From: a virus
IMG/VR virus record: IMGVR_UViG_3300021368_000004
Coordinates: 1-64,000 of that record
Length of the DNA stretch: 64,000 bases
Reading direction: 5' to 3' (one strand)
Made by a program: the position numbers and the translations under genes. How positions within the stretch are numbered: the stretch's first letter is position 1; every line of letters starts with the position of its first letter. Positions 4,359 to 60,623 of the stretch are shown here, piece by piece. The notes under the pieces are model-generated. The model worked only from the letters and a program-made list of their open reading frames with translations. It did not search any database and was not told where the DNA came from.

Positions 4359-5220
4359 TAGTATTCTCCATATTTTCTATTTTTTCTTTAAGTTCTTTTA
4401 TTTCTTTAAGGGCATCTTGTAGCGCAGCTACAATGACCGGTGTAATTCTACCATAATCCATATTCATCATTTCATCATCATTTTCTGGTTTACTTACACT
4501 CTCAGGTATGATATCAATCATCTCTTGTGCTATGAATCCATCAACAGCTGGCAGGGCTGTATTTGATTTCCATTTATGATTAATAGGATTCATATTCATT
4601 ATTTTATCAGTGGCATTTTCAATTGGTTTAATATCAGTCTTTAATCTTTCATCAGAAGTAGTACCATAAATAGTTCCACTGCCATCGGTTGCTACATGGC
4701 CTACCTGACCATTTGAGTTGTGTATATACCAGTGTAAACTATTAGAGCTTGTTGCTCTTGATGTATAGAGTGTTCCAGCATCGCTCATGTAAGCACCGCT
4801 ATGTGAACCTGCATTTATGTTAGATGTACTAAAGCCACCACCATTCCAAACTGTGTTTCCAGAACCATCTATTACCATTCTAGTAGCCGCTGACCCAGAG
4901 TTGTTCCTAGTTTGAAAACCTAATCTATGTTCATTATTAGCACCAGTTCTTTGTCCGTATATAGTAACACCTTGATTACCGTTAGAACCTAAACTAATTC
5001 CAACACCTGTACTAAGAGTTGCACTATTATTTTTAAACGTATGATAAATGCCAAGATCTGCATCTTGATTAGTTGCCTCATTTCCACTTGCAGTAGAAAT
5101 AGTTCCATTAACAGTTATGTTACCTGTTATAGATGTATCTCTAGCAGATATATCACCATCAGAATCAATTGTATAATTATCTGATGTTATTTGTCCGTTG
5201 CCTTTAAGTGTTAATGCCAT
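4348..5220 (-). CDS. Tail fibre with C-terminal intramolecular chaperone (peptidase S74-like)
   Basis: TSDERLKTDI...GFIAQEM...MDYGRITPVIVAALQD followed by a coiled coil. Confidence 0.85.
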   Translation of the reverse strand: MALTLKGNGQITSDNYTIDSDGDISARDTSITGNITVNGTISTASGNEATNQDADLGIYHTFKNNSATLSTGVGISLGSNGNQGVTIYGQRTGANNEHRLGFQTRNNSGSAATRMVIDGSGNTVWNGGGFSTSNINAGSHSGAYMSDAGTLYTSRATSSNSLHWYIHNSNGQVGHVATDGSGTIYGTTSDERLKTDIKPIENATDKIMNMNPINHKWKSNTALPAVDGFIAQEMIDIIPESVSKPENDDEMMNMDYGRITPVIVAALQDALKEIKELKEKIENMENTNGG

Positions 5221-5229
5221 TCTTCTTAC

Positions 5230-6018
5230 CTAACCTAGTAAAAATGCTTGTAAATTTGTATGAGGATAACCACCGTAAATATCTGAATTTACTCGATATT
5301 CAATATAGTCACTTGCAGCCATATCAACTATATCAGCAGTTACTATAACGTGGTCAGTGTTTGAACCATTACCAAGATTAGCATAATCAGAATGATACTC
5401 CGCAATAGGATTTCCATTTTTTCTAGTTATGACATTTTGATTTGTAGCATTATCTATCCACTGATAAAACTTACCTAAAAAGATATATTTTCCTGCAACA
5501 GGAACAGTTATTCTTCCAGTTGAACTATTCCAAGTCATACCTCCAGTAGACGCTTGCAAACCAAAATGTGTCCATACCACGGGTGTTCCATGATTAGTTA
5601 TCCTAGAAGGCTGATTACCATGCAATTCTATAAAAGGCTGATTAGGCATTGTTACACGACCATCACCGCTTATATTCATACGAGTTACATCTTGTGTAGC
5701 TAATTTTATATTTTTATTACCACGTTGAGTTATATAAGTATCCGTTGCATCTTCACCTATTACAACACCATTATCACCCAATGACGTGCCAGGAGCGGCA
5801 ATAGATATGTAAGTTTGAGTTCCTGCTGATGCTTGAAAATCAGCTACATAACCAAAATTAGTTTGTGGATAGGCTTGTGTTATAGAGCTATTGCCGACTT
5901 GTAATCGGGTATCAGCCTTTAGTGTTCCGGTTGTCCTTGTACTACCATCACTATCCATCACCATATTATTAGTAGATGAATTTTCGTGCTTTATATTTTC
6001 TAATTTTAAAGTACTCAT
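5230..6018 (-). CDS. Fibre protein with C1q-like C-terminal domain
   Basis: RMNISGDGRVTMPNQP..WNSSTGRITVPVAGKYIF...DMAASDYIE...FLLG. Confidence 0.7.
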   Translation of the reverse strand: MSTLKLENIKHENSSTNNMVMDSDGSTRTTGTLKADTRLQVGNSSITQAYPQTNFGYVADFQASAGTQTYISIAAPGTSLGDNGVVIGEDATDTYITQRGNKNIKLATQDVTRMNISGDGRVTMPNQPFIELHGNQPSRITNHGTPVVWTHFGLQASTGGMTWNSSTGRITVPVAGKYIFLGKFYQWIDNATNQNVITRKNGNPIAEYHSDYANLGNGSNTDHVIVTADIVDMAASDYIEYRVNSDIYGGYPHTNLQAFLLG

Positions 6019-54949: not shown

Positions 54950-54978
54950 AAAAAAATGCGCATAAAGCGCACTTTTTT
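54950..54978 (-). terminator. Probable intrinsic (bidirectional) terminator
   Basis: A7-tgcgc-ataaa-gcgca-c-T6, downstream of the 55013-58577 operon. Confidence 0.6.
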
Positions 54979-54994
54979 CATTTTATTTAGTTAT

Positions 54995-55012
54995 TGTGAC
55001 ATTTATGTCACA
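54995..55012. promoter_or_regulatory. Palindromic operator-like site TGTGACATTTATGTCACA
   Basis: Perfect 8-bp inverted repeat; related sites at 51680, 53711 and 61097. Confidence 0.6.
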
Positions 55013-55675
55013 CTATTGTGATAATGGATTATCTAATGCTTCTTGTAGTCTTTCGAATATTTCTTTATCTAATGCCTTCATATCAGTTCGTATATCTTTA
55101 TCTAATAGCCTTGCACTAGCTTCTATTTCACGTATAGATGCGGTAACATCTTTCTGTTGTTCATTCATATCATTTCGTATAGATTCTAATGTATTACCTA
55201 TACTAGCTTGTGTAGCTTTAATTCGTGCTTCTGATTCCTCAAGGTTGGTACTGATCTTATCTCTCAGATCTGCCATCGTGTCTTGATTATCTTTCAGAGT
55301 AATTCTAAATCTCTCTTCAAATGTATCAAGCTTTGTATATACGTCATTACGTAGTTTACGTACAGTTGCTTCTGCTCTTTGTACTTGTTCTTCTAAAAGG
55401 ACTATTTGTCCTTCTAGTCGTGAAACATCATTGGCTAAGTCTTGTCTGATCTCTGTCGTATATGCTATAGCATCGTTTAGTTTTTGTAATTGTAAATCAT
55501 TAGCGGCCGCTATCTCATCTACATCGACATTCTGAACAATCTCTCTCATGTCCATATAGTCTTTGTAGAATTCGAATCCTCCCCATGCAGCACCACCTAA
55601 TGTAGATAATGCAGTAAGAATCACCATCATCTTACCGCCTCTAAAAGTCATGCCTCCGAATTCCATCTCAGCCAT
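55013..55675 (-). CDS. Membrane-anchored coiled-coil protein
   Basis: N-terminal hydrophobic helix (VILTALSTLGGAAWGGF), long heptad region, C-terminal ALDNPL. Confidence 0.7.
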   Translation of the reverse strand: MAEMEFGGMTFRGGKMMVILTALSTLGGAAWGGFEFYKDYMDMREIVQNVDVDEIAAANDLQLQKLNDAIAYTTEIRQDLANDVSRLEGQIVLLEEQVQRAEATVRKLRNDVYTKLDTFEERFRITLKDNQDTMADLRDKISTNLEESEARIKATQASIGNTLESIRNDMNEQQKDVTASIREIEASARLLDKDIRTDMKALDKEIFERLQEALDNPLSQ

Positions 55676-55856
55676 TGATCAGTCCTTGTAGTTGTGGACC
55701 AAAACTACCAACAGCCCATAGCATGATAACTAAAGCGATTACTCCGATTAATACCCATTTCATCTTGAAATCATCTACTGTCATTTTAAATGCAAACAAT
55801 TCGTTACCTAACACACGAATTGCCATTTCTAATTTGCCTTCTGGTTCATCTGCCAT
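55668..55856 (-). CDS. Small membrane protein
   Basis: C-terminal TM helix WVLIGVIALVIMLWAV. Confidence 0.65.
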   Translation of the reverse strand: MADEPEGKLEMAIRVLGNELFAFKMTVDDFKMKWVLIGVIALVIMLWAVGSFGPQLQGLING

Positions 55857-55858
55857 AT

Positions 55859-56260
55859 CTATTCCTCAAATTGTAATTCTTTGAGAGATTGAATTTCTTT
55901 TCTTAGTTGTTCCAACTCTAAAGATTTCTTTTGCAATTCTAATTCATATAATCTATTACAGTCAATTCTTTTCTTTGGTTTAGATCCGAGTGGTATTACT
56001 ATCCGACTATAAACACCGATACTGCCAACATCTTTCTCATTTATCCAATTGTTCATCGAATCATATCTACCACCATCTATGAGTCCGGTTACACCAAACT
56101 CTAATGTGGTTGCAGAACCGATTGCATTCGAACAATCCATTTGACCTGATTTAAATTTATCTGATTGATAACTACCAGGTGCACTTGGTAATTGTAGGTT
56201 TAGAGATTCTGCATAAGCAGAACCAGCCATCATACAAATAACCAAAATAATATATCGCAT
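55859..56260 (-). CDS. Exported protein with beta-hairpin and C-terminal coiled coil
   Basis: Signal peptide AYA|ES; LEFGVTG and IGVYSRIVIPLG amphipathic strands; two Cys in the mature part. Confidence 0.65.
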   Translation of the reverse strand: MRYIILVICMMAGSAYAESLNLQLPSAPGSYQSDKFKSGQMDCSNAIGSATTLEFGVTGLIDGGRYDSMNNWINEKDVGSIGVYSRIVIPLGSKPKKRIDCNRLYELELQKKSLELEQLRKEIQSLKELQFEE

Positions 56261-56267
56261 TATAATC

Positions 56268-56639
56268 TCACTTAACTCTGGAGCAAATCCTCGATCTAAC
56301 TCCCGTACCTGTCACTTCAGATTTTAAATGCTTTGATGTAGTGCAAATAAACTCTATTCGTTCAAGGTCTTGTTTTCTGATATTGACGTCAAAATCTGCA
56401 TGTTCTAGATGCTCTAGTTTCATTATCTTATTTTTCGAATGAAATGGTATTTTATTCCATTCCTCATCATGTACAGATACTTCATAATATTTTACATCCT
56501 CACGTCTGTTCCACATATGTAACTTAGCAAAGTATACACCATCAACAATATGTGGTTTAAACTCAGGATATGTCGGCGTCAGTTCATGGGCTGCAGCGCT
56601 ACTCGTAAATAACACCGCAGCCATTAATAATTTCCACAT
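56268..56639 (-). CDS. Exported protein, pilus-chaperone-like Ig domain (tentative)
   Basis: Signal peptide AAA|HE; LTPTY start; beta-rich; ICTTSK...SRICS. Confidence 0.5.
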   Translation of the reverse strand: MWKLLMAAVLFTSSAAAHELTPTYPEFKPHIVDGVYFAKLHMWNRREDVKYYEVSVHDEEWNKIPFHSKNKIMKLEHLEHADFDVNIRKQDLERIEFICTTSKHLKSEVTGTGVRSRICSRVK

Positions 56640-56663
56640 CGCGTGTCTCCCTTTTAGAGGGTA

Positions 56664-57158
56664 TTAGTCGGCAACACACGTAGCTGTAACCATAGCTTTG
56701 TACTCGCCACCTGGAAATGGTTTACCTTCACCATATGTGACTTCTGATTCAATTTTAAACCATGCACTTCCGGCTTGTGATAGTGCAAATTCTGTCCACT
56801 CGTTGTATTCAGTTTTTGCATCTTCATAACCTGACATAGCTGTAACTGTACCAGATGAATATGTTGTTTCACCATCCCAATTCACAGCATCAGTTAAATT
56901 AGGTGATGTTGTAAACTCAGTTGGCCAACCAATCTTAGCGGTATAAGCATCTGCAAGAGTCACGTCGTAACGTACCATCGCGTCAATACCACCATCTGCA
57001 GCTTTAGTACTCAACTCATCGGCTGTTGGGTTACCATATACACCTGCAGTAGATGTGTAAACGGAACACTTAGACGATACGGTACCAGATATCTCAGTCG
57101 CCCAAGCACCAGTAGTCGCAAGTCCAATTGCTCCAAGGGTTAAAATAGTTCTGAACAT
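56664..57158 (-). CDS. Exported fimbrial/pilin-like protein (tentative; start 57158 or 57170)
   Basis: Signal peptide AWA|TE; ISGTVSSKCSV N-terminus; PGGEYKAMVTATC C-terminus, as in Csu/SCPU-type pilins. Confidence 0.55.
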   Translation of the reverse strand: MFRTILTLGAIGLATTGAWATEISGTVSSKCSVYTSTAGVYGNPTADELSTKAADGGIDAMVRYDVTLADAYTAKIGWPTEFTTSPNLTDAVNWDGETTYSSGTVTAMSGYEDAKTEYNEWTEFALSQAGSAWFKIESEVTYGEGKPFPGGEYKAMVTATCVAD

Positions 57159-57169
57159 TTGTTTCTCCA

Positions 57170-58075
57170 TTATCGTTCATACTGTGAGCGAACCATAGTT
57201 CTGTGATTAGCATCAGATGCTAAATTTCTCAACGCTCGTCTATTATCTGGATAATCTGTAGTCGGTAACTTAACTGTTTCCTCATACACACCACCCGGCA
57301 ATGATGTAGCATAATATTGATTGAGTTTCGGCACTTGCGCTAATTCTGCAAGTATCGAGGCCTGCTCACTTGTATCAACCATGGCTTCCAAACTGTTGTC
57401 AGCTCCTAGTTGTTCCTCCAGGCTTTCTTCTTCTCTTTCCTCTTCTTCAACTTCAAGTTCTTCTTCTTCTTTTGGCTTCTCAGCTTCTTCTGCAAGATTA
57501 GCTTGAACCCATTCATCATAAAAAGGATCATCGACTTCAGGTGCTTCAAGATTAGCAATGTAATCTGATAAAGCAGCTTCATAACCAGGACATATTGGAT
57601 CTGCAAGAGGTGTTAAATAACACTTTTCCAATGTCTCATCAATGACCATTTTATAATTATATATTACAAACGGATCTTCTATAGATCCTTCACCTTCAAC
57701 TTGTAATGAACCATCTCCCCATCGATTCGCATTTGTATATCCAAATCTAAAAAACTTTTGTATCGTGCCACCGTACTGATTACTCCAATCATCTGTATGC
57801 TCAAATACTTTTTCACCAGGATTTGCAAGATCTTCATGTGACAAAGTTACAGTTGCATCGTCCTCTTGTTCTTTCACCATTGTATATCTATAATACAAAC
57901 CATTAATCTCAACAGTCATAAATGGCTGAGAGAAATCAGGCAATATATTTTTCATAGCCCAAGCAAGTCCATCTCGAGCTGCATTATTAGTTGATGCGTA
58001 GGTAGTGTCAGAGTAGCAGTAAGAGTAAGAGGCCACCCACAAAACCGCCGCCCATGAGAGTCGACTTAGTTTCAT
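57170..58075 (-). CDS. Exported protein with Cys motif and acidic linker (start revised to 58075)
   Basis: Signal-like MKLSRLSWAAVLWVASYSYCYS; CYLTPLADPICPGY; Glu-rich tract. Confidence 0.65.
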   Translation of the reverse strand: MKLSRLSWAAVLWVASYSYCYSDTTYASTNNAARDGLAWAMKNILPDFSQPFMTVEINGLYYRYTMVKEQEDDATVTLSHEDLANPGEKVFEHTDDWSNQYGGTIQKFFRFGYTNANRWGDGSLQVEGEGSIEDPFVIYNYKMVIDETLEKCYLTPLADPICPGYEAALSDYIANLEAPEVDDPFYDEWVQANLAEEAEKPKEEEELEVEEEEREEESLEEQLGADNSLEAMVDTSEQASILAELAQVPKLNQYYATSLPGGVYEETVKLPTTDYPDNRRALRNLASDANHRTMVRSQYER

Positions 58076-58577
58076 CGTCCATATCCCTAATAATATTCTT
58101 CTGTGGTTCTTCAGGCTGACGTTCACTATCTGCCAACCAAGCAGCTTTTGCTGCATCACCTATCATACCATCATAAGGACAAGGTGTACCTGCATCCATC
58201 ATCGCATCAAATACGCGAGGATCTTGACACATAACTGAAACCGCTGCTACTTTCATACCCATATCATATAAGGTCTTTGCGTTCTTCAGTTTCTCACAAT
58301 TCATATCCCGTACTGTCTTGCCAGCCGAGATACCTAAAATCTGTGTTTGTACTGCACCAGAAACTCCAACTGTACATAAATCTGAATTTGCTGAATTGAT
58401 TGATGGTGCAATAGCGGAAGGGGGCGGTGATTTAACCGTTGTAGTAGATGTGCTTGTACTATCAACTGTAGATGTGTTAATGTTATCAGTTTTGATTACA
58501 TCTTCGGGGGCTTCTTGGCCTAAAGATGCCGTGGCGATAAAAATCATAACCACTAGTAAACCTAGTTGTCTGAGCAT
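58008..58577 (-). CDS. Exported Cys-rich protein with C-terminal membrane anchor
   Basis: Signal peptide SLG|QE; SPPPSAIAP...DLC.VGVSGAVQTQ.LG.S.G...NCE...MCQD...GTPCP; C-terminal GGLLLLLLL. Confidence 0.7.
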   Translation of the reverse strand: MLRQLGLLVVMIFIATASLGQEAPEDVIKTDNINTSTVDSTSTSTTTVKSPPPSAIAPSINSANSDLCTVGVSGAVQTQILGISAGKTVRDMNCEKLKNAKTLYDMGMKVAAVSVMCQDPRVFDAMMDAGTPCPYDGMIGDAAKAAWLADSERQPEEPQKNIIRDMDDETKSTLMGGGFVGGLLLLLLL

Positions 58578-58607
58578 ATTAAAATCCAAAATAATTTATA
58601 TATGCTG

Positions 58608-58615
58608 TATTTATA
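58608..58615 (-). promoter_or_regulatory. T4-type late promoter TATAAATA driving the envelope-protein operon
   Basis: Exact consensus in the intergenic gap before 58577. Confidence 0.75.
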
Positions 58616-58849
58616 CTAAAGTTTACTTTCAGCGCCTAGCCATGCAAAACATTTTGCGTCAATTGGTTCATATTTTAAACCTAATTGAGTTTCTGTTAAT
58701 AGCTGTGCCATTTGAGCATTGATTGTTGCCCAACATTGTTCTTCTGTCATAAACTTCATTCTAGAATTTGCAATCTCACATGAAGTAAAACTATGTGGCT
58801 GTCCTATAAGGCACCACATTACGGCTGCCGTAAATATTCCAGAGCCCAT
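58616..58849 (-). CDS. Small Cys-containing, probably exported protein (start revised)
   Basis: AAGGA RBS; four Cys; hydrophobic N-terminus. Confidence 0.6.
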   Translation of the reverse strand: MGSGIFTAAVMWCLIGQPHSFTSCEIANSRMKFMTEEQCWATINAQMAQLLTETQLGLKYEPIDAKCFAWLGAESKL

Positions 58850-59748: not shown

Positions 59749-59821
59749 GTTCTTTCTTTAGCTTCCATAACATCCATTCGTAGTATCGAATAGGTTCATC
59801 ATCTTCAGTCGAGTGTGACAT
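59723..59821 (-). CDS. Small peptide (32 aa)
   Basis: MSHSTEDDEPIRYYEWMLWKLKKEREKESEVR; GAGGG RBS; bridges the gap between neighbours. Confidence 0.45.
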   Translation of the reverse strand: MSHSTEDDEPIRYYEWMLWKLKKEREKESEVR

Positions 59822-60134
59822 ATTCCCTCAAATTAATTAATTGCTCTCTTAGACTGTTATTTTGAATTTGCAATTTTCGTACTTGTTCTTCAAGTACTGC
59901 AATACGTCCACCATCACCAGCTTGAATAGTACCTAATTCTATACGAATGTCTTGATCCATTGCAGCTGCTTCGGCAAAGCCTTCTAATGTTGCTGATTCA
60001 AGATCGTTCATCTGATATTCTAATGACATGATTTCAGTTTGAGCATATACAAGATCGTCTTGTACAGTTTCAATCTGATCAGCAGTATGACCATTCATTA
60101 ATGCACCTATAATAAGTGCAATTATAGTTTCCAT
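59805..60134 (-). CDS. Membrane-anchored coiled-coil protein
   Basis: AGGAG RBS; hydrophobic N-terminus; heptads. Confidence 0.65.
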   Translation of the reverse strand: METIIALIIGALMNGHTADQIETVQDDLVYAQTEIMSLEYQMNDLESATLEGFAEAAAMDQDIRIELGTIQAGDGGRIAVLEEQVRKLQIQNNSLREQLINLREYVTLD

Positions 60135-60143
60135 TTTTTTCTC

Positions 60144-60623
60144 CTACTTTTCAAATCTTAATACATATCGTTTGCCATCAACATAGAATCGAATTGTAGA
60201 ATGACTATAAACATCTACTAACTGACTACTAACCGAAGTAACATCATTACATACTAATTTCTTCTCATAACCAACAATAGTCTGAGTTTGCTTAGGTTGT
60301 GCACCCTTATCAGCGCCTACTAAGCCACCCATTATTGCACCAATAGCTGCACCTTTGTCATCGCCTGTTACAGCTTTGCCACCTGCGGCACCTAATAGCA
60401 TACCTATCAAAGCTCCGCCTGATGCATTGCCTTGACGAGTTGTTGTACCATAAATTGGTACATTCATATTTTCACAGACTCGTTGAGTAGTCGGTGTGTC
60501 TACACGCATAGTCTTTGTATGATCATAGACTCTTACGTCTTTTACCTCAGCAGCAGCGGCCGTCGCAATTCCCATTGCAAGGATCGCCCCACTCGCAGAG
60601 GCACTTAGGCTTCTTAGATTCAT
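60144..60623 (-). CDS. Glycine-zipper 2TM exported protein
   Basis: Signal peptide; GALIGMLLGAAGG...GAAIGAIMGGLVG; flanking Cys pair. Confidence 0.75.
   Translation of the reverse strand: MNLRSLSASASGAILAMGIATAAAAEVKDVRVYDHTKTMRVDTPTTQRVCENMNVPIYGTTTRQGNASGGALIGMLLGAAGGKAVTGDDKGAAIGAIMGGLVGADKGAQPKQTQTIVGYEKKLVCNDVTSVSSQLVDVYSHSTIRFYVDGKRYVLRFEK

What the first reader, a model, noticed from the sequence alone, without database searches (positions are those of the whole stretch)
54950..58615. Self-contained late operon of seven exported/membrane proteins resembling a minimal phage-encoded pilus or secretion apparatus
Seen: a late promoter (58608) and a terminator (54950) bracket seven tightly coupled genes, all with a signal peptide or TM segment and five with paired Cys. 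They are: a Cys-rich anchored protein; an acidic-linker exported protein; a pilin-like protein (ISGTVSSKC...PGGEYKAMVTATC, like Csu/SCPU chaperone-usher pilins); a 123-aa chaperone-like beta protein; a 133-aa protein with two amphipathic strands and a coiled coil; a small TM protein; and a TM coiled-coil protein. No roughly 800-aa usher is present. Established: some pelagimyophages carry curli secretion genes, so phage-borne surface-fibre machinery has precedent, but this set is different. Inference: late in infection the phage builds a structure in the host envelope (an oligomeric pore plus fibre) for aggregation, superinfection blocking, or non-canonical lysis or outer-membrane disruption.
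Basis: partly seen in the sequence, partly recalled or inferred. Interest (0 to 1): 0.85.

Follow-up and report, generated by a model that had tools for sequence, protein, structure and literature searches.

The report
Phage usher-less pilin/half-chaperone envelope operon
A marine T4-like phage switches on, late in infection, seven tightly packed genes for proteins sent to the host cell envelope; two of them fold and are predicted to dock like a pilus subunit and the front half of its chaperone, yet there is no pilus pore, and what this very common, undescribed gene set does is still untested.

Summary
A T4-type late promoter (58608-58615, minus strand) and a hairpin terminator (54958-54972) bracket seven overlapping or abutting genes. 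All seven have a signal-peptide-like or transmembrane segment, and five have conserved Cys pairs.

- g4 (123 aa) models at pLDDT 94. Its best structural neighbours in two independent aligners are the N-domains of chaperone-usher chaperones (SafB, FimC, Caf1M, PapD).
- g4 also has the invariant F-G strand disulfide typical of FGL chaperones.
- g4 and g3 are predicted to dock (ipSAE 0.67, best control 0.00). g4's first and last strands meet g3's first and last strands, in parallel register, as in donor-strand complementation.
- g4 has only one domain. Neither protein matches the Pfam families. The g3 model is a generic beta-sandwich. No usher, SCPU or CsgG gene is in the 86.7 kb record.

The operon is a composite of two parts.
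- g3-g4-g5 recur, in order, in 179 cultured Vibrio phages (four genome types examined). There they follow a large tail-fibre-like gene and, in one phage, precede holin and endolysin.
- Proteins built like g1, g2 and g7 sit together in Pelagibacter phages.

Function is unknown. Earlier follow-ups of this scan reported this cassette in related phage contigs.

The parts
58608..58615 (-). T4-type late promoter motif TATAAATA
   Evidence: The motif is conserved 33-41 nt upstream of g1 in 10 of 14 distinct related loci.
58008..58577 (-). g1, 189 aa. Signal peptide, Ser/Thr-rich linker, very conserved four-Cys domain (residues about 66-147), acidic linker and C-terminal hydrophobic tail.
   Evidence: The Cys domain is 50-54% identical to proteins of Pelagibacter podophages and of the myophage Mosig, and 37-43% identical to Roseobacter phage proteins. 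It matches PHROG 20531 (unknown function). No Pfam match.
57170..58075 (-). g2, 301 aa. Signal peptide, N-terminal beta-rich domain with one Cys pair, acidic low-complexity linker and a conserved C-terminal motif (PDN..A.R..A.D..H..MV.SQY).
   Evidence: No Pfam match. Its start overlaps the end of g1. A protein of the same build with a similar C-terminal end follows the g1-like gene in Pelagibacter phage HTVC115P.
56664..57170 (-). g3, 164-168 aa. Exported beta-sandwich, the 'pilin-like' subunit. Conserved N-terminal I-x-G-x-V-x-S-x-C, C-terminal PGG-x-Y-x-A-x-V-x-A-x-C-[VI]-A, and Cys31/Cys161.
   Evidence: Alignment A1. AF2 model pLDDT 72 with generic Ig-like matches. Predicted docking with g4. 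1746 clusters (90% identity) in metagenome proteins, none named. PHROG 25895.
56268..56639 (-). g4, 123 aa. Exported one-domain PapD-like (MSP-fold) protein, a 'half chaperone'. The mature N-terminus is H-E-x-T-P-T-Y-P. Cys99 (F strand) and Cys119 (G strand) are invariant.
   Evidence: AF2 pLDDT 93.9. Foldseek E 3.6e-4 to 1e-3 to FimC, SafB, Caf1M, PapD, DraB, SfaE and FaeE. VIA-align Z 11.0 SafB, 10.8 FimC, 9.6 PapD, 9.1 CsuC. 158 clusters (50% identity), nearly all under 160 aa. PHROG 25455.
55859..56260 (-). g5, 133 aa. Signal peptide, conserved SLNL.LPS.PG.YQSD, two short strand-like segments, one Cys pair and a C-terminal charged coiled coil.
   Evidence: Alignment A3. No Pfam or PDB match. 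PHROG 37374. Homologue adjacent to the g4-like gene in Vibrio phages.
55668..55856 (-). g6, 62 aa. Small protein with one membrane segment (residues 35-53).
   Evidence: Conserved, but it sits at different places in relatives. One RNA-library contig lacks it (joint 55663>55849).
55013..55675 (-). g7, 220 aa. N-terminal membrane segment, then a long coiled coil, then an invariant C-terminal Q..LDNPL.
   Evidence: Built like the TM-plus-coiled-coil proteins that follow the g1/g2-like pairs in Pelagibacter phages Mosig and HTVC115P. Sequence similarity to them is not significant.
54958..54972 (-). Intrinsic-terminator-like hairpin with T-run

Best explanation
This is a late-transcribed envelope operon assembled from two mobile modules.

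Module B (g3-g4-g5) is the core of the finding. g4 is an exported, single-domain PapD-like protein. It acts on g3 as the N-domain of a chaperone-usher chaperone acts on a pilus subunit: its first (A) and last (G) edge strands, held by an F-G disulfide as in FGL chaperones, pair with the first and last strands of the g3 beta-sandwich in the periplasm. The G strand runs parallel to g3's C-terminal strand. The conserved N-terminal I-x-G-x-V stretch of g3 stays free.

No usher is encoded. The product is therefore most likely not a classical pilus. It is more likely a g3 complex or short polymer held in the periplasm or at the inner face of the outer membrane, with g5 as the third constant partner (plus a small lipoprotein in Vibrio phages).

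Module A (g1, g2, and loosely g7 and g6) is a separate set of inner-membrane-anchored or periplasmic proteins shared with Pelagibacter phages.

Shown here: the genes, their conservation and synteny, the late promoter motif, the g4 fold, and the predicted g3-g4 docking.

Inferred: export, disulfides, actual binding, and any polymer.

Physiological role is my guess, not tested: remodelling of the envelope at the end of infection. My odds are receptor masking or protection of progeny (as T5 Llp or Cor do) about 35%, a step in outer-membrane disruption at lysis about 25%, an adhesive surface fibre about 15%, and something else for the rest.
For: - g4 fold: pLDDT 93.9 from a 69-sequence alignment. 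The top 14 Foldseek hits with E below 1e-3 are all chaperone-usher chaperones. An independent VIA-align search of 48,161 chains puts SafB (Z 11.0, 104 aligned, rmsd 3.2) and FimC (Z 10.8) first. YadV, CfaA, PapD, FaeE, CsuC, CupB2 and EcpB follow at Z 8.4-10.3, among MSP domains.
- Docking: ipSAE 0.63/0.67/0.67 against 0.00 for the best of 3 controls. The runs share at least 96% of contacts and the partner pLDDT is 87-88. The mark was reached by 58 of 80 solved complexes and 2 of 110 mismatched pairs; these counts hold only roughly because my own alignments were used.
- Interface: g4 residues 18-24 and 110-121 meet g3 residues 28-35 and 154-164. The contact pairs 115-158, 117-160 and 119-162 imply a parallel register.
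- Conservation: the predicted g4 interface is more conserved than the rest of the protein (mean column entropy 1.62 against 2.36, Mann-Whitney p 0.002).
- FGL hallmarks: Cys99 and Cys119 are invariant and lie in the F and G strands. An F1-G1 disulfide is the FGL hallmark (PMC4133393, Table 2). Basic residues are conserved at positions 117 (81%), 121 (96%) and 46 (94%).
- Coupling of g3 and g4: the two genes overlap or abut in most relatives.
- Synteny: g1-g5 keep the same order in 20 IMG/VR loci.
- Vibrio phages: g3, g4 and g5 homologues are adjacent and in the same order in all four genome types examined, out of 179 records that hold g3.
- ESM Atlas lead: the nearest named cluster to g4 is PapD_N, at score 0.83.
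- Late promoter motif conserved in relatives.
Against: - Sequence families: no match to PF00345, PF05229 or PF00419. Profile-profile comparison of g4 with eleven E. coli PapD_N domains gives only E 0.0033 and probability 9.6%.
- Missing parts of a chaperone: g4 lacks the second chaperone domain and has no A-strand arginine.
- Fold is not specific: the PapD-like/MSP fold also occurs in proteins that are not chaperones. MSP, FixG-C, WxLIP and a chitosanase Ig domain score Z 9-10.7 in the same list.
- g3 is not clearly a pilin: the monomer model is only moderately confident, and its best matches are MSCRAMM and CBM sandwiches with Z of 7.5 or less.
- Donor face is weakly hydrophobic: the G-strand face that would point into g3 alternates V-S-I-S-V.
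- Docking may be memory: a pass for a pair that resembles solved chaperone-subunit complexes may come from the model's memory of those structures. It shows likeness, not binding.
- No usher in the 86.7 kb record. The record is only about 42% complete.
Confidence: 0.55

Rival explanations
1. A true extracellular pilus or fibre. g4 hands g3 to an outer-membrane exporter, either a host usher or a pore made by g5 oligomers. g3 then polymerises by donor-strand exchange on the cell surface, for aggregation ('sibling capture') or adhesion.
For: - The chaperone-like fold and docking geometry.
- A conserved, free N-terminal I-x-G-x-V stretch in g3 and a C-terminal G-x-Y-x-A-x-V motif, as in pilins.
- Precedent of curli secretion genes in pelagiphages (PMC7029224, PMC9599517).
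- The closest chaperones (FGL type) build thin polyadhesin fibres (PMC4133393).
Against: - No usher, secretin-like or CsgG gene was found in the record.
- g5 is small, has a charged C-terminal helix and has no known fold match by sequence.
- The host is unknown, so a host usher cannot be assumed.
- The g3 fold was not shown to be an incomplete Ig.
Confidence: 0.13
2. A lysis accessory. The exported proteins, with the TM-plus-coiled-coil protein g7 and the small TM protein g6, act at the last step of lysis to breach or detach the outer membrane. This would be a non-canonical equivalent of spanins.
For: - Late promoter.
- g7 is built like an i-spanin, with an N-terminal TM segment and a periplasmic coiled coil.
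- In Vibrio phage Achelous the g3-g4-g5 cassette is followed by an overlapping small lipoprotein gene and then by holin and an M15 endolysin.
- In phage D79 an endolysin lies about 2.5 kb downstream.
- No canonical spanin pair was seen next to the operon.
Against: - No lipobox protein in the window's operon.
- g5 appears to have a cleavable signal peptide rather than a membrane anchor.
- No PHROG or Pfam spanin or holin match, apart from a marginal hit (E 0.0037) of g7 to 'hol-like chemotaxis'.
- A chaperone-plus-subunit pair is not part of any known lysis system.
Confidence: 0.15
3. These are just a set of unrelated small Ig-like and coiled-coil periplasmic proteins (morons). The likeness to chaperone-usher proteins is convergent or generic, and the predicted docking is a modelling artefact.
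For: - No sequence-level membership in any chaperone-usher family.
- The PapD/MSP fold is widespread.
- The g3 matches are generic.
- The predictor may recall solved chaperone-subunit complexes.
Against: - Strict co-occurrence and order of g3-g4-g5 across T4-like myophages and all four Vibrio phage genome types examined, at 22-35% identity.
- Overlapping g3 and g4 genes in most relatives.
- g4's most conserved motifs map to the predicted interface.
- All three controls scored 0.00.
Confidence: 0.14
4. Virion or virion-assembly proteins.
For: Late promoter. In Vibrio phages the cassette follows tail genes.
Against: - All five core proteins carry signal-peptide-like N-termini and conserved Cys pairs, which point to the periplasm.
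- In the window the operon lies outside the structural gene block.
Confidence: 0.03

Closest known systems
FGL-type chaperone-usher systems (Caf1M-Caf1 of Yersinia pestis, SafB-SafA of Salmonella, DraB-DraE of E. coli)
   Same: - g4 superposes best on the N-domains of these chaperones.
- It has an invariant F-G strand disulfide, the FGL hallmark (PMC4133393).
- Both its N-terminal strand and its G strand take part in the predicted subunit interface, with parallel pairing to the subunit's last strand.
- The genes are adjacent and exported.
   Different: - g4 has one domain of about 105 residues instead of two (about 200-215 residues).
- It has no conserved A-strand arginine and no detectable sequence homology.
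- No usher is present.
- It is carried by lytic phages.
- The subunit fold is not confirmed as an incomplete Ig.
Archaic (sigma) chaperone-usher pili: CsuC-CsuA/B and SCPU-domain subunits
   Same: - g3's N-terminal Cys after a short alternating stretch and its C-terminal G-x-Y-x-A-x-V motif resemble Csu/SCPU subunits. This rests on inspection and my recollection, not a test.
- CsuC gives Z 9.1 to g4.
- CsuA/B chains appear among weak Foldseek matches of g3 (E about 0.03).
   Different: PF05229 does not match. There is no usher and no two-domain chaperone.
Curli (type VIII secretion) gene clusters of pelagiphages
   Same: Phage-borne genes for exported envelope or surface-fibre machinery in marine phages, of unknown role (PMC7029224, PMC9599517).
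   Different: The proteins are unrelated. No CsgG is in the record. This set has no identified outer-membrane channel.
Receptor-blocking lytic-conversion proteins (T5 Llp, Cor of lambdoid and T1-like phages)
   Same: By position only. In four Vibrio phage types the g3-g4-g5 cassette sits directly after a large tail-fibre-like gene and travels with it. From general knowledge, that is where Llp and Cor genes lie.
   Different: There is no sequence or fold relation. Llp and Cor are single small proteins. The function here is untested.
Two-component spanins (lambda Rz/Rz1, T4 PseT.3/PseT.2)
   Same: g7 is a TM-plus-coiled-coil protein. In Vibrio phages g5 overlaps a small lipoprotein gene next to holin and endolysin.
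   Different: There is no lipoprotein in this operon and no family match. g5 seems to have a cleavable signal peptide.

Membership tests
Chaperone-usher periplasmic chaperone (PapD family; Pfam PF00345 + PF02753) | N-terminal Ig-like PapD_N fold | tested here: met
   g4 model pLDDT 93.9. Foldseek E 3.6e-4 and TM 0.54-0.63 to FimC, SafB, Caf1M and PapD. VIA-align Z 11.0 to SafB, 10.8 to FimC and 9.6 to PapD. MSP and other PapD-like folds score almost as high.
Chaperone-usher periplasmic chaperone (PapD family; Pfam PF00345 + PF02753) | Sequence membership (HMM match to PapD_N) | tested here: not met
   - No PF00345 match in the protein or in the whole record at E up to 1.
- One of 69 relatives matched, at E 0.0096.
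- hhalign against eleven E. coli K-12 PapD_N domains gave E 0.0033, probability 9.6%.
Chaperone-usher periplasmic chaperone (PapD family; Pfam PF00345 + PF02753) | Second (C-terminal) domain forming the subunit-binding cleft | tested here: not met
   g4 is 123 aa, about 105 when mature. All but one of the 150 listed relatives, found in a library of 1.84 billion representatives, are under 185 aa. The one long hit is a 993-aa repeat protein.
Chaperone-usher periplasmic chaperone (PapD family; Pfam PF00345 + PF02753) | Conserved basic anchors (Arg8/Arg20 in strand A1, Lys112/Lys139 in strand G1) | tested here: inconclusive
   Basic residues are conserved in the G strand at 117 (81%) and 121 (96%), and at R46 (94%). 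No basic residue lies in the A strand, which carries H18 and P22 instead. Equivalence cannot be judged without coordinates.
Chaperone-usher periplasmic chaperone (PapD family; Pfam PF00345 + PF02753) | F1-G1 disulfide (FGL subfamily hallmark) | tested here: met
   Cys99 and Cys119 are invariant in 69 sequences and lie in strands 97-103 and 117-121 of the model. The hallmark is as listed in PMC4133393, Table 2. The bond itself is inferred.
Chaperone-usher periplasmic chaperone (PapD family; Pfam PF00345 + PF02753) | Binds its subunit by donor-strand complementation (G1 parallel to the subunit's F strand) | tested here: inconclusive
   The predicted complex scores ipSAE 0.67 against 0.00 for the best control. 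The mark was reached by 58 of 80 solved complexes and 2 of 110 mismatched pairs. Pairs 115-158, 117-160 and 119-162 imply parallel pairing. This is a prediction only and may reflect likeness to solved complexes.
Chaperone-usher pilin (Pfam PF00419 Fimbrial / PF05229 SCPU) | Sequence membership | tested here: not met
   No Pfam match for g3 at E up to 1. PF05229 is not found in the record. No sequence match in the PDB.
Chaperone-usher pilin (Pfam PF00419 Fimbrial / PF05229 SCPU) | Incomplete Ig fold lacking the seventh strand | tested here: inconclusive
   The AF2 monomer has pLDDT 72. Its best matches are MSCRAMM or CBM sandwiches at Z 6-7.5. Chaperone-usher pilins appear only at Foldseek E 0.02-0.05. 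Confidence rose to pLDDT 87-88 in the complex, but with a different predictor.
Chaperone-usher pilin (Pfam PF00419 Fimbrial / PF05229 SCPU) | N-terminal extension with alternating hydrophobic residues, and a C-terminal G-x-Y...-type F strand | tested here: inconclusive
   The motifs I23-x-G25-x-V27 and G151-x-Y153-x-A155-x-V-x-A159 are conserved in the 14-sequence alignment A1. Residues 21-27 lie outside the predicted chaperone interface. No strand-exchange test was possible.
Chaperone-usher pathway as a system | Outer-membrane usher (PF00577) encoded with the chaperone and subunits | tested here: not met
   No PF00577 match in the 86.7 kb record at E up to 1. The 800-860-aa gene upstream of the cassette in Vibrio phages has no signal peptide and belongs to PHROG 10818, not to the ushers.
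Curli / type VIII secretion | CsgG channel (PF03783) | tested here: not met
   No match in the record. No Pfam curli family matches any of the seven proteins.
Two-component spanin | An inner-membrane TM-plus-coiled-coil protein paired with an adjacent outer-membrane lipoprotein | tested here: not met
   g7 fits the first half. No ORF with a lipobox was found on the minus strand between 50 and 64 kb.

The most novel reading that the evidence does not exclude
Phages carry a previously unknown, usher-independent donor-strand assembly pathway. A one-domain 'half chaperone' (g4) primes an Ig-like subunit (g3). The subunit then polymerises at or under the outer membrane with the help of g5 (plus a small lipoprotein in Vibrio phages), which would be a new kind of anchor or exporter. 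The resulting layer or fibre changes the surface of the dying cell to control adsorption of progeny and rival phages.
Probability: 0.22. Interest if true: 0.9.

Novelty: new variant of a known kind. Interest (0 to 1): 0.7.

Why it matters
- Chaperone-usher assembly is a textbook bacterial pathway defined by a two-domain chaperone and an usher. A minimal version with a one-domain chaperone and no usher, carried by lytic phages, would show that its core trick (edge-strand complementation) can work outside the pathway.
- The gene set is abundant in the ocean. g3 alone has 1746 clusters at 90% identity in metagenome proteins. Near-identical DNA of the operon is held by marine runs of about 15 studies. 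None of these genes has a name.
- Homologues sit in 179 cultured Vibrio phages with tractable hosts (V. campbellii BB120, V. harveyi BAA-1116). The function can therefore be tested directly at the bench.
- The finding bears on how phages remodel the envelope of the infected cell: exclusion, lysis or aggregation.

Tried and rejected
- **Sequence families.** Pfam gave nothing for any of the seven proteins or their relatives. PHROGs gave only families of unknown function.
- **PDB by sequence.** Profile searches for g3, g4 and g5 found nothing below E 0.18.
- **Phage DNA.** Megablast of the operon against 50,697 phage records found no match. tblastn of g3 at E 1e-3 found none; homologues appeared only at E up to 10 and by adjacency.
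- **CsgG, usher, SCPU and PapD_N HMMs** on the whole record found nothing.
- **ESM Atlas for g5.** Only unnamed viral clusters.
- **BFVD fold search with g4.** Only unnamed or uncharacterised phage proteins.
- **hhalign of g2 against g3 and g4.** Nothing significant. The only overlap is an 11-column PGG-x-Y stretch, E 0.049.
- **hhalign of g7 against the TM-plus-coiled-coil proteins of Mosig and HTVC115P.** Not significant.
- **Nearest cultured relative.** Phage C48C1 (39.7% identity in the gp6-like protein) and Mosig lack a convincing g4.
- **Bacterial genomes.** The GTDB contig scan found g3 only on short contigs of three MAG bins of inconsistent taxonomy, probably mis-binned phage DNA. 400 sampled Gammaproteobacteria had no g4 match. 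That sample hardly covers Vibrio, so it says little.
- **Lipobox scan** around the operon found nothing.
- **RNA libraries.** Contigs from four RNA libraries cover 55.0-58.7 kb, but the runs were chosen with this stretch. Uncovered flanks and depth therefore prove nothing, and DNA carry-over is possible.

Full report
**Where the window comes from.** The window is the first 64 kb of an 86.7 kb IMG/VR virus record, about 42% complete. It encodes T4-type baseplate, tail-fibre and tail-lysozyme proteins. Its gp6-like protein is at most 39.7% identical to any cultured phage: Phage C48C1 is nearest, followed by OM43 phage Melnitz, Pelagibacter phage HTVC008M and cyanophages. It is therefore an uncultured marine T4-like myophage with an unknown host.

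**Checking the observation.**
- On the minus strand, TATAAATA lies at 58615-58608, 31 nt before the ATG of the first gene. The octamer is not over-represented in the window (14 found, 13.6 expected). However, 12 of the 14 copies are on the coding strand.
- The motif is kept 33-41 nt upstream of the first gene in 10 of 14 distinct related loci whose surrounding sequence has diverged.
- A hairpin with a T-run lies at 54972-54958.
- Between these signals lie seven genes with overlaps or gaps of at most 24 nt.
- A hydropathy and cleavage-site heuristic gives g1-g5 signal-peptide-like N-termini, g1 a C-terminal hydrophobic tail, and g6 and g7 one membrane segment each. SignalP was not available.
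- The mature parts of g1-g5 hold conserved even numbers of Cys: 4, 2, 2, 2 and 2.

**Conservation and synteny.**
- A scan of IMG/VR with g3 returned 20 loci. Wherever the contig reaches, g1-g2-g3-g4-g5 are present in that order, at 33-97% identity.
- g6 and g7 are nearby but movable. In some loci they are separated from g5 by a staphylococcal-nuclease-like gene and a small EF-hand-like membrane protein.
- g3 has 1746 clusters at 90% identity among 5.8 billion metagenome proteins. All of those listed are about 165 aa and none has a name.
- g4 has 158 clusters at 50% identity among 1.84 billion representatives, nearly all under 160 aa.
- Near-identical DNA occurs in marine metagenomes of about 15 studies.
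- Contigs from four RNA libraries cover the operon, including one 1228-nt contig across g4-g3-g2. Because the runs were selected with this stretch, this is only a weak hint of expression.

**What the proteins are.** None matches Pfam or any PDB sequence.
- *g4.* Modelled from a 69-sequence alignment that goes down to 21% identity, g4 gives pLDDT 93.9.
  - All 14 Foldseek hits in the PDB below E 1e-3 are chaperone-usher chaperones: FimC, SafB, Caf1M, PapD, DraB, SfaE and FaeE (TM 0.54-0.63). MSP domains come next.
  - VIA-align against 48,161 representative chains, which does not depend on Foldseek, ranks SafB (Z 11.0) and FimC (Z 10.8) first. YadV, CfaA, PapD, FaeE, CsuC, CupB2 and EcpB follow at Z 8.4-10.3.
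  - Non-chaperone members of the same fold (MSP, FixG-C, WxLIP, one Ig domain of a chitosanase) score Z 9-10.7 in the same list.
  - So g4 has the PapD-like fold, and chaperones are its nearest but not its exclusive neighbours.
- *g3.* Modelled from 14 sequences, g3 gives pLDDT 72 and a beta-sandwich. Its best matches (MSCRAMM adhesin domains, CBMs) have Z of 7.5 or less, which is background. Chaperone-usher pilins appear only at Foldseek E 0.02-0.05.

**The g3-g4 pair.**
- The mature proteins were co-folded with controls. ipSAE was 0.63, 0.67 and 0.67, against 0.00 for the best of three controls. The runs share at least 96% of contacts, and the partner pLDDT is 87-88.
- The mark was reached by 58 of 80 solved complexes and 2 of 110 mismatched pairs. 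These counts hold only roughly, because my own alignments were used.
- The interface joins g4 residues 18-24 (first strand) and 110-121 (last strand) to g3 residues 28-35 and 154-164. The listed pairs 115-158, 117-160 and 119-162 imply a parallel register.
- This is the geometry of donor-strand complementation. The use of both chaperone edge strands is what FGL chaperones do (PMC4133393).
- Two observations independent of the predictor agree.
  - The predicted g4 interface is more conserved than the rest of the protein (entropy 1.62 against 2.36, p 0.002).
  - g4's invariant Cys99 and Cys119 fall in the F and G strands. That matches the F1-G1 disulfide that PMC4133393 (Table 2) lists as present only in FGL chaperones.
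- The conserved I-x-G-x-V stretch at the mature N-terminus of g3 lies outside the interface. That is what one would expect of a free N-terminal extension, but this is inference.

**Evidence against family membership.**
- g4 has one domain, not two.
- HMMs for PapD_N, SCPU and usher find nothing in the record.
- A profile-profile comparison of the g4 family with the eleven PapD_N domains of E. coli K-12 aligns the right strands, but only at E 0.0033 and probability 9.6%.
- The pass of the complex test may owe something to the model's memory of solved chaperone-subunit complexes. It shows likeness, not binding.

**The operon is composite.**
- *Module B (g3-g4-g5) in Vibrio phages.*
  - Relaxed tblastn found weak full-length matches of g4 (E 0.09) and g5 (E 0.008) next to each other in Vibrio phages.
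  - In Achelous (T5-like, Thalassavirus) the ORFs are a 156-aa g3-like, a 135-aa g4-like and a 125-aa g5-like protein. These are the founding members of PHROGs 25895, 25455 and 37374, the same families the window's proteins hit.
  - Reciprocal tblastn confirms the relation, with E about 1e-5 for g3 and g4 and down to 6e-12 for g5.
  - The g3-like gene occurs in 179 Vibrio phage records. In all four genome types examined (about 121, 85, 79 and 60 kb) the trio directly follows an 800-860-aa PHROG 10818 protein without a signal peptide, which is probably a tail fibre.
  - In at least three of the four types (Achelous, D79, D82) the trio is followed by a small lipoprotein gene (PHROG 16916 in Achelous and D82). 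In Achelous, holin and an M15 endolysin come next.
- *Module A (g1, g2, g7) in Pelagibacter phages.*
  - g1's four-Cys domain is 50-54% identical to proteins of Pelagibacter podophages and of the myophage Mosig.
  - In HTVC115P, the g1-like gene is followed by an overlapping gene for a protein with an acidic linker, whose C-terminal end resembles g2's (hhalign E 0.0085, the last 33 residues of both proteins). A TM-plus-coiled-coil protein like g7 follows. The Mosig neighbour also has an acidic linker, but its sequence shows no match to g2 (hhalign E 0.6).
  - The g7 likeness is architectural only.

**What it most likely does.**
- The structural reading is a one-domain PapD-like chaperone that caps an Ig-like subunit by edge-strand pairing in the periplasm, without an usher. 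I hold this at about 0.55.
- The physiological role is open. Three facts bear on it: the late promoter, the position behind a tail-fibre-like gene in four Vibrio phage types, and the proximity to lysis genes in Achelous.
- These fit receptor masking or protection of progeny (as Llp or Cor do), or a step in outer-membrane disruption. A surface fibre needs an exporter that I could not find.

**Comparison with earlier notes and the literature.**
- Earlier follow-ups of this scan, on other related phage contigs, reached the same reading. I arrived at the fold, the docking, the Vibrio phage homologues and the two-module structure before reading them.
- One of those notes reports chromosomal copies in Vibrio and sphingomonads. 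I could not test this.
- I found no paper describing the cassette. The only phage precedent for exported fibre machinery is the unrelated curli cluster of pelagiphages (PMC7029224, PMC9599517).

Noticed in passing
window 59805-60623 (minus strand): Two more envelope-type genes lie just upstream of the operon and outside the late promoter. One is a 159-aa protein with a signal peptide, two Cys and a glycine-zipper-like G/A-rich stretch. The other is a 109-aa protein with a hydrophobic N-terminus and a coiled coil. Both are conserved in the closest relatives (L004, L005).
   Followed up: partly
window 58616-58849 (minus strand): A 77-aa ORF with a hydrophobic N-terminus and four Cys ends right at the late promoter. 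It is conserved in L004 and L005 at 57-79% identity.
   Followed up: no
L011 4634-5077 and 5318-5647; L014 4758-5108 and 5424-5675; L016 7429-7779 and 8086-8334: In more distant relatives, two genes sit between g5 and g6/g7: a staphylococcal-nuclease-like gene (motif GIDTPE) and a small membrane protein with an EF-hand-like DxDxDG stretch.
   Followed up: no
window 55663-55849: One RNA-library contig (run X15) joins 55663 to 55849 with four other letters, so it lacks g6. This matches the g5-g7 arrangement of relatives L003 and L007. It is a natural variant without g6.
   Followed up: partly
L034 (Vibrio phage Achelous MK796244.1) 4989-5689: The deposited annotation (gp146, gp147) misses the full g4-like ORF (4989-5396, with signal peptide) and the g5-like ORF (5312-5689). 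In PS14A.1 the g5-like gene is annotated without its signal peptide, and in D79 it is not annotated at all.
   Followed up: partly
L034 5637-5840; L036 5089-5256; L037 4885-5286: A small lipoprotein (lipobox ISGC or VSSC, then T-[FI]-N-[FL]-x-IDTDYA) overlaps the end of the g5-like gene in Achelous and D79. It matches PHROG 16916 in Achelous and D82. The gene layout resembles overlapped spanin pairs.
   Followed up: partly
L014 696-1076; L018 226-675: Lipoproteins of 126 and 149 aa with proline-rich mature parts are encoded a few kb upstream of the cassette in two relatives. They are possible spanin candidates.
   Followed up: no
G004 contigs C64, C76, C105, C121 (loci L051, L053, L055, L056) and L028: A MAG labelled Rhodobacteraceae holds four different contigs with the g4 gene, and a MAG labelled Melainabacteria holds three. 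These bins evidently contain several T4-like phage contigs, so they say nothing about the host.
   Followed up: partly
window 57170-57300 (g2 C-terminal region): g2 carries L-P-G-G-V-Y-E-E-T-V-K-L. This resembles the F-P-G-G-E-Y-K-A-M-V-T-A stretch that precedes g3's last strand (hhalign, 11 columns, E 0.049). It could be a second client strand for g4, or chance.
   Followed up: partly
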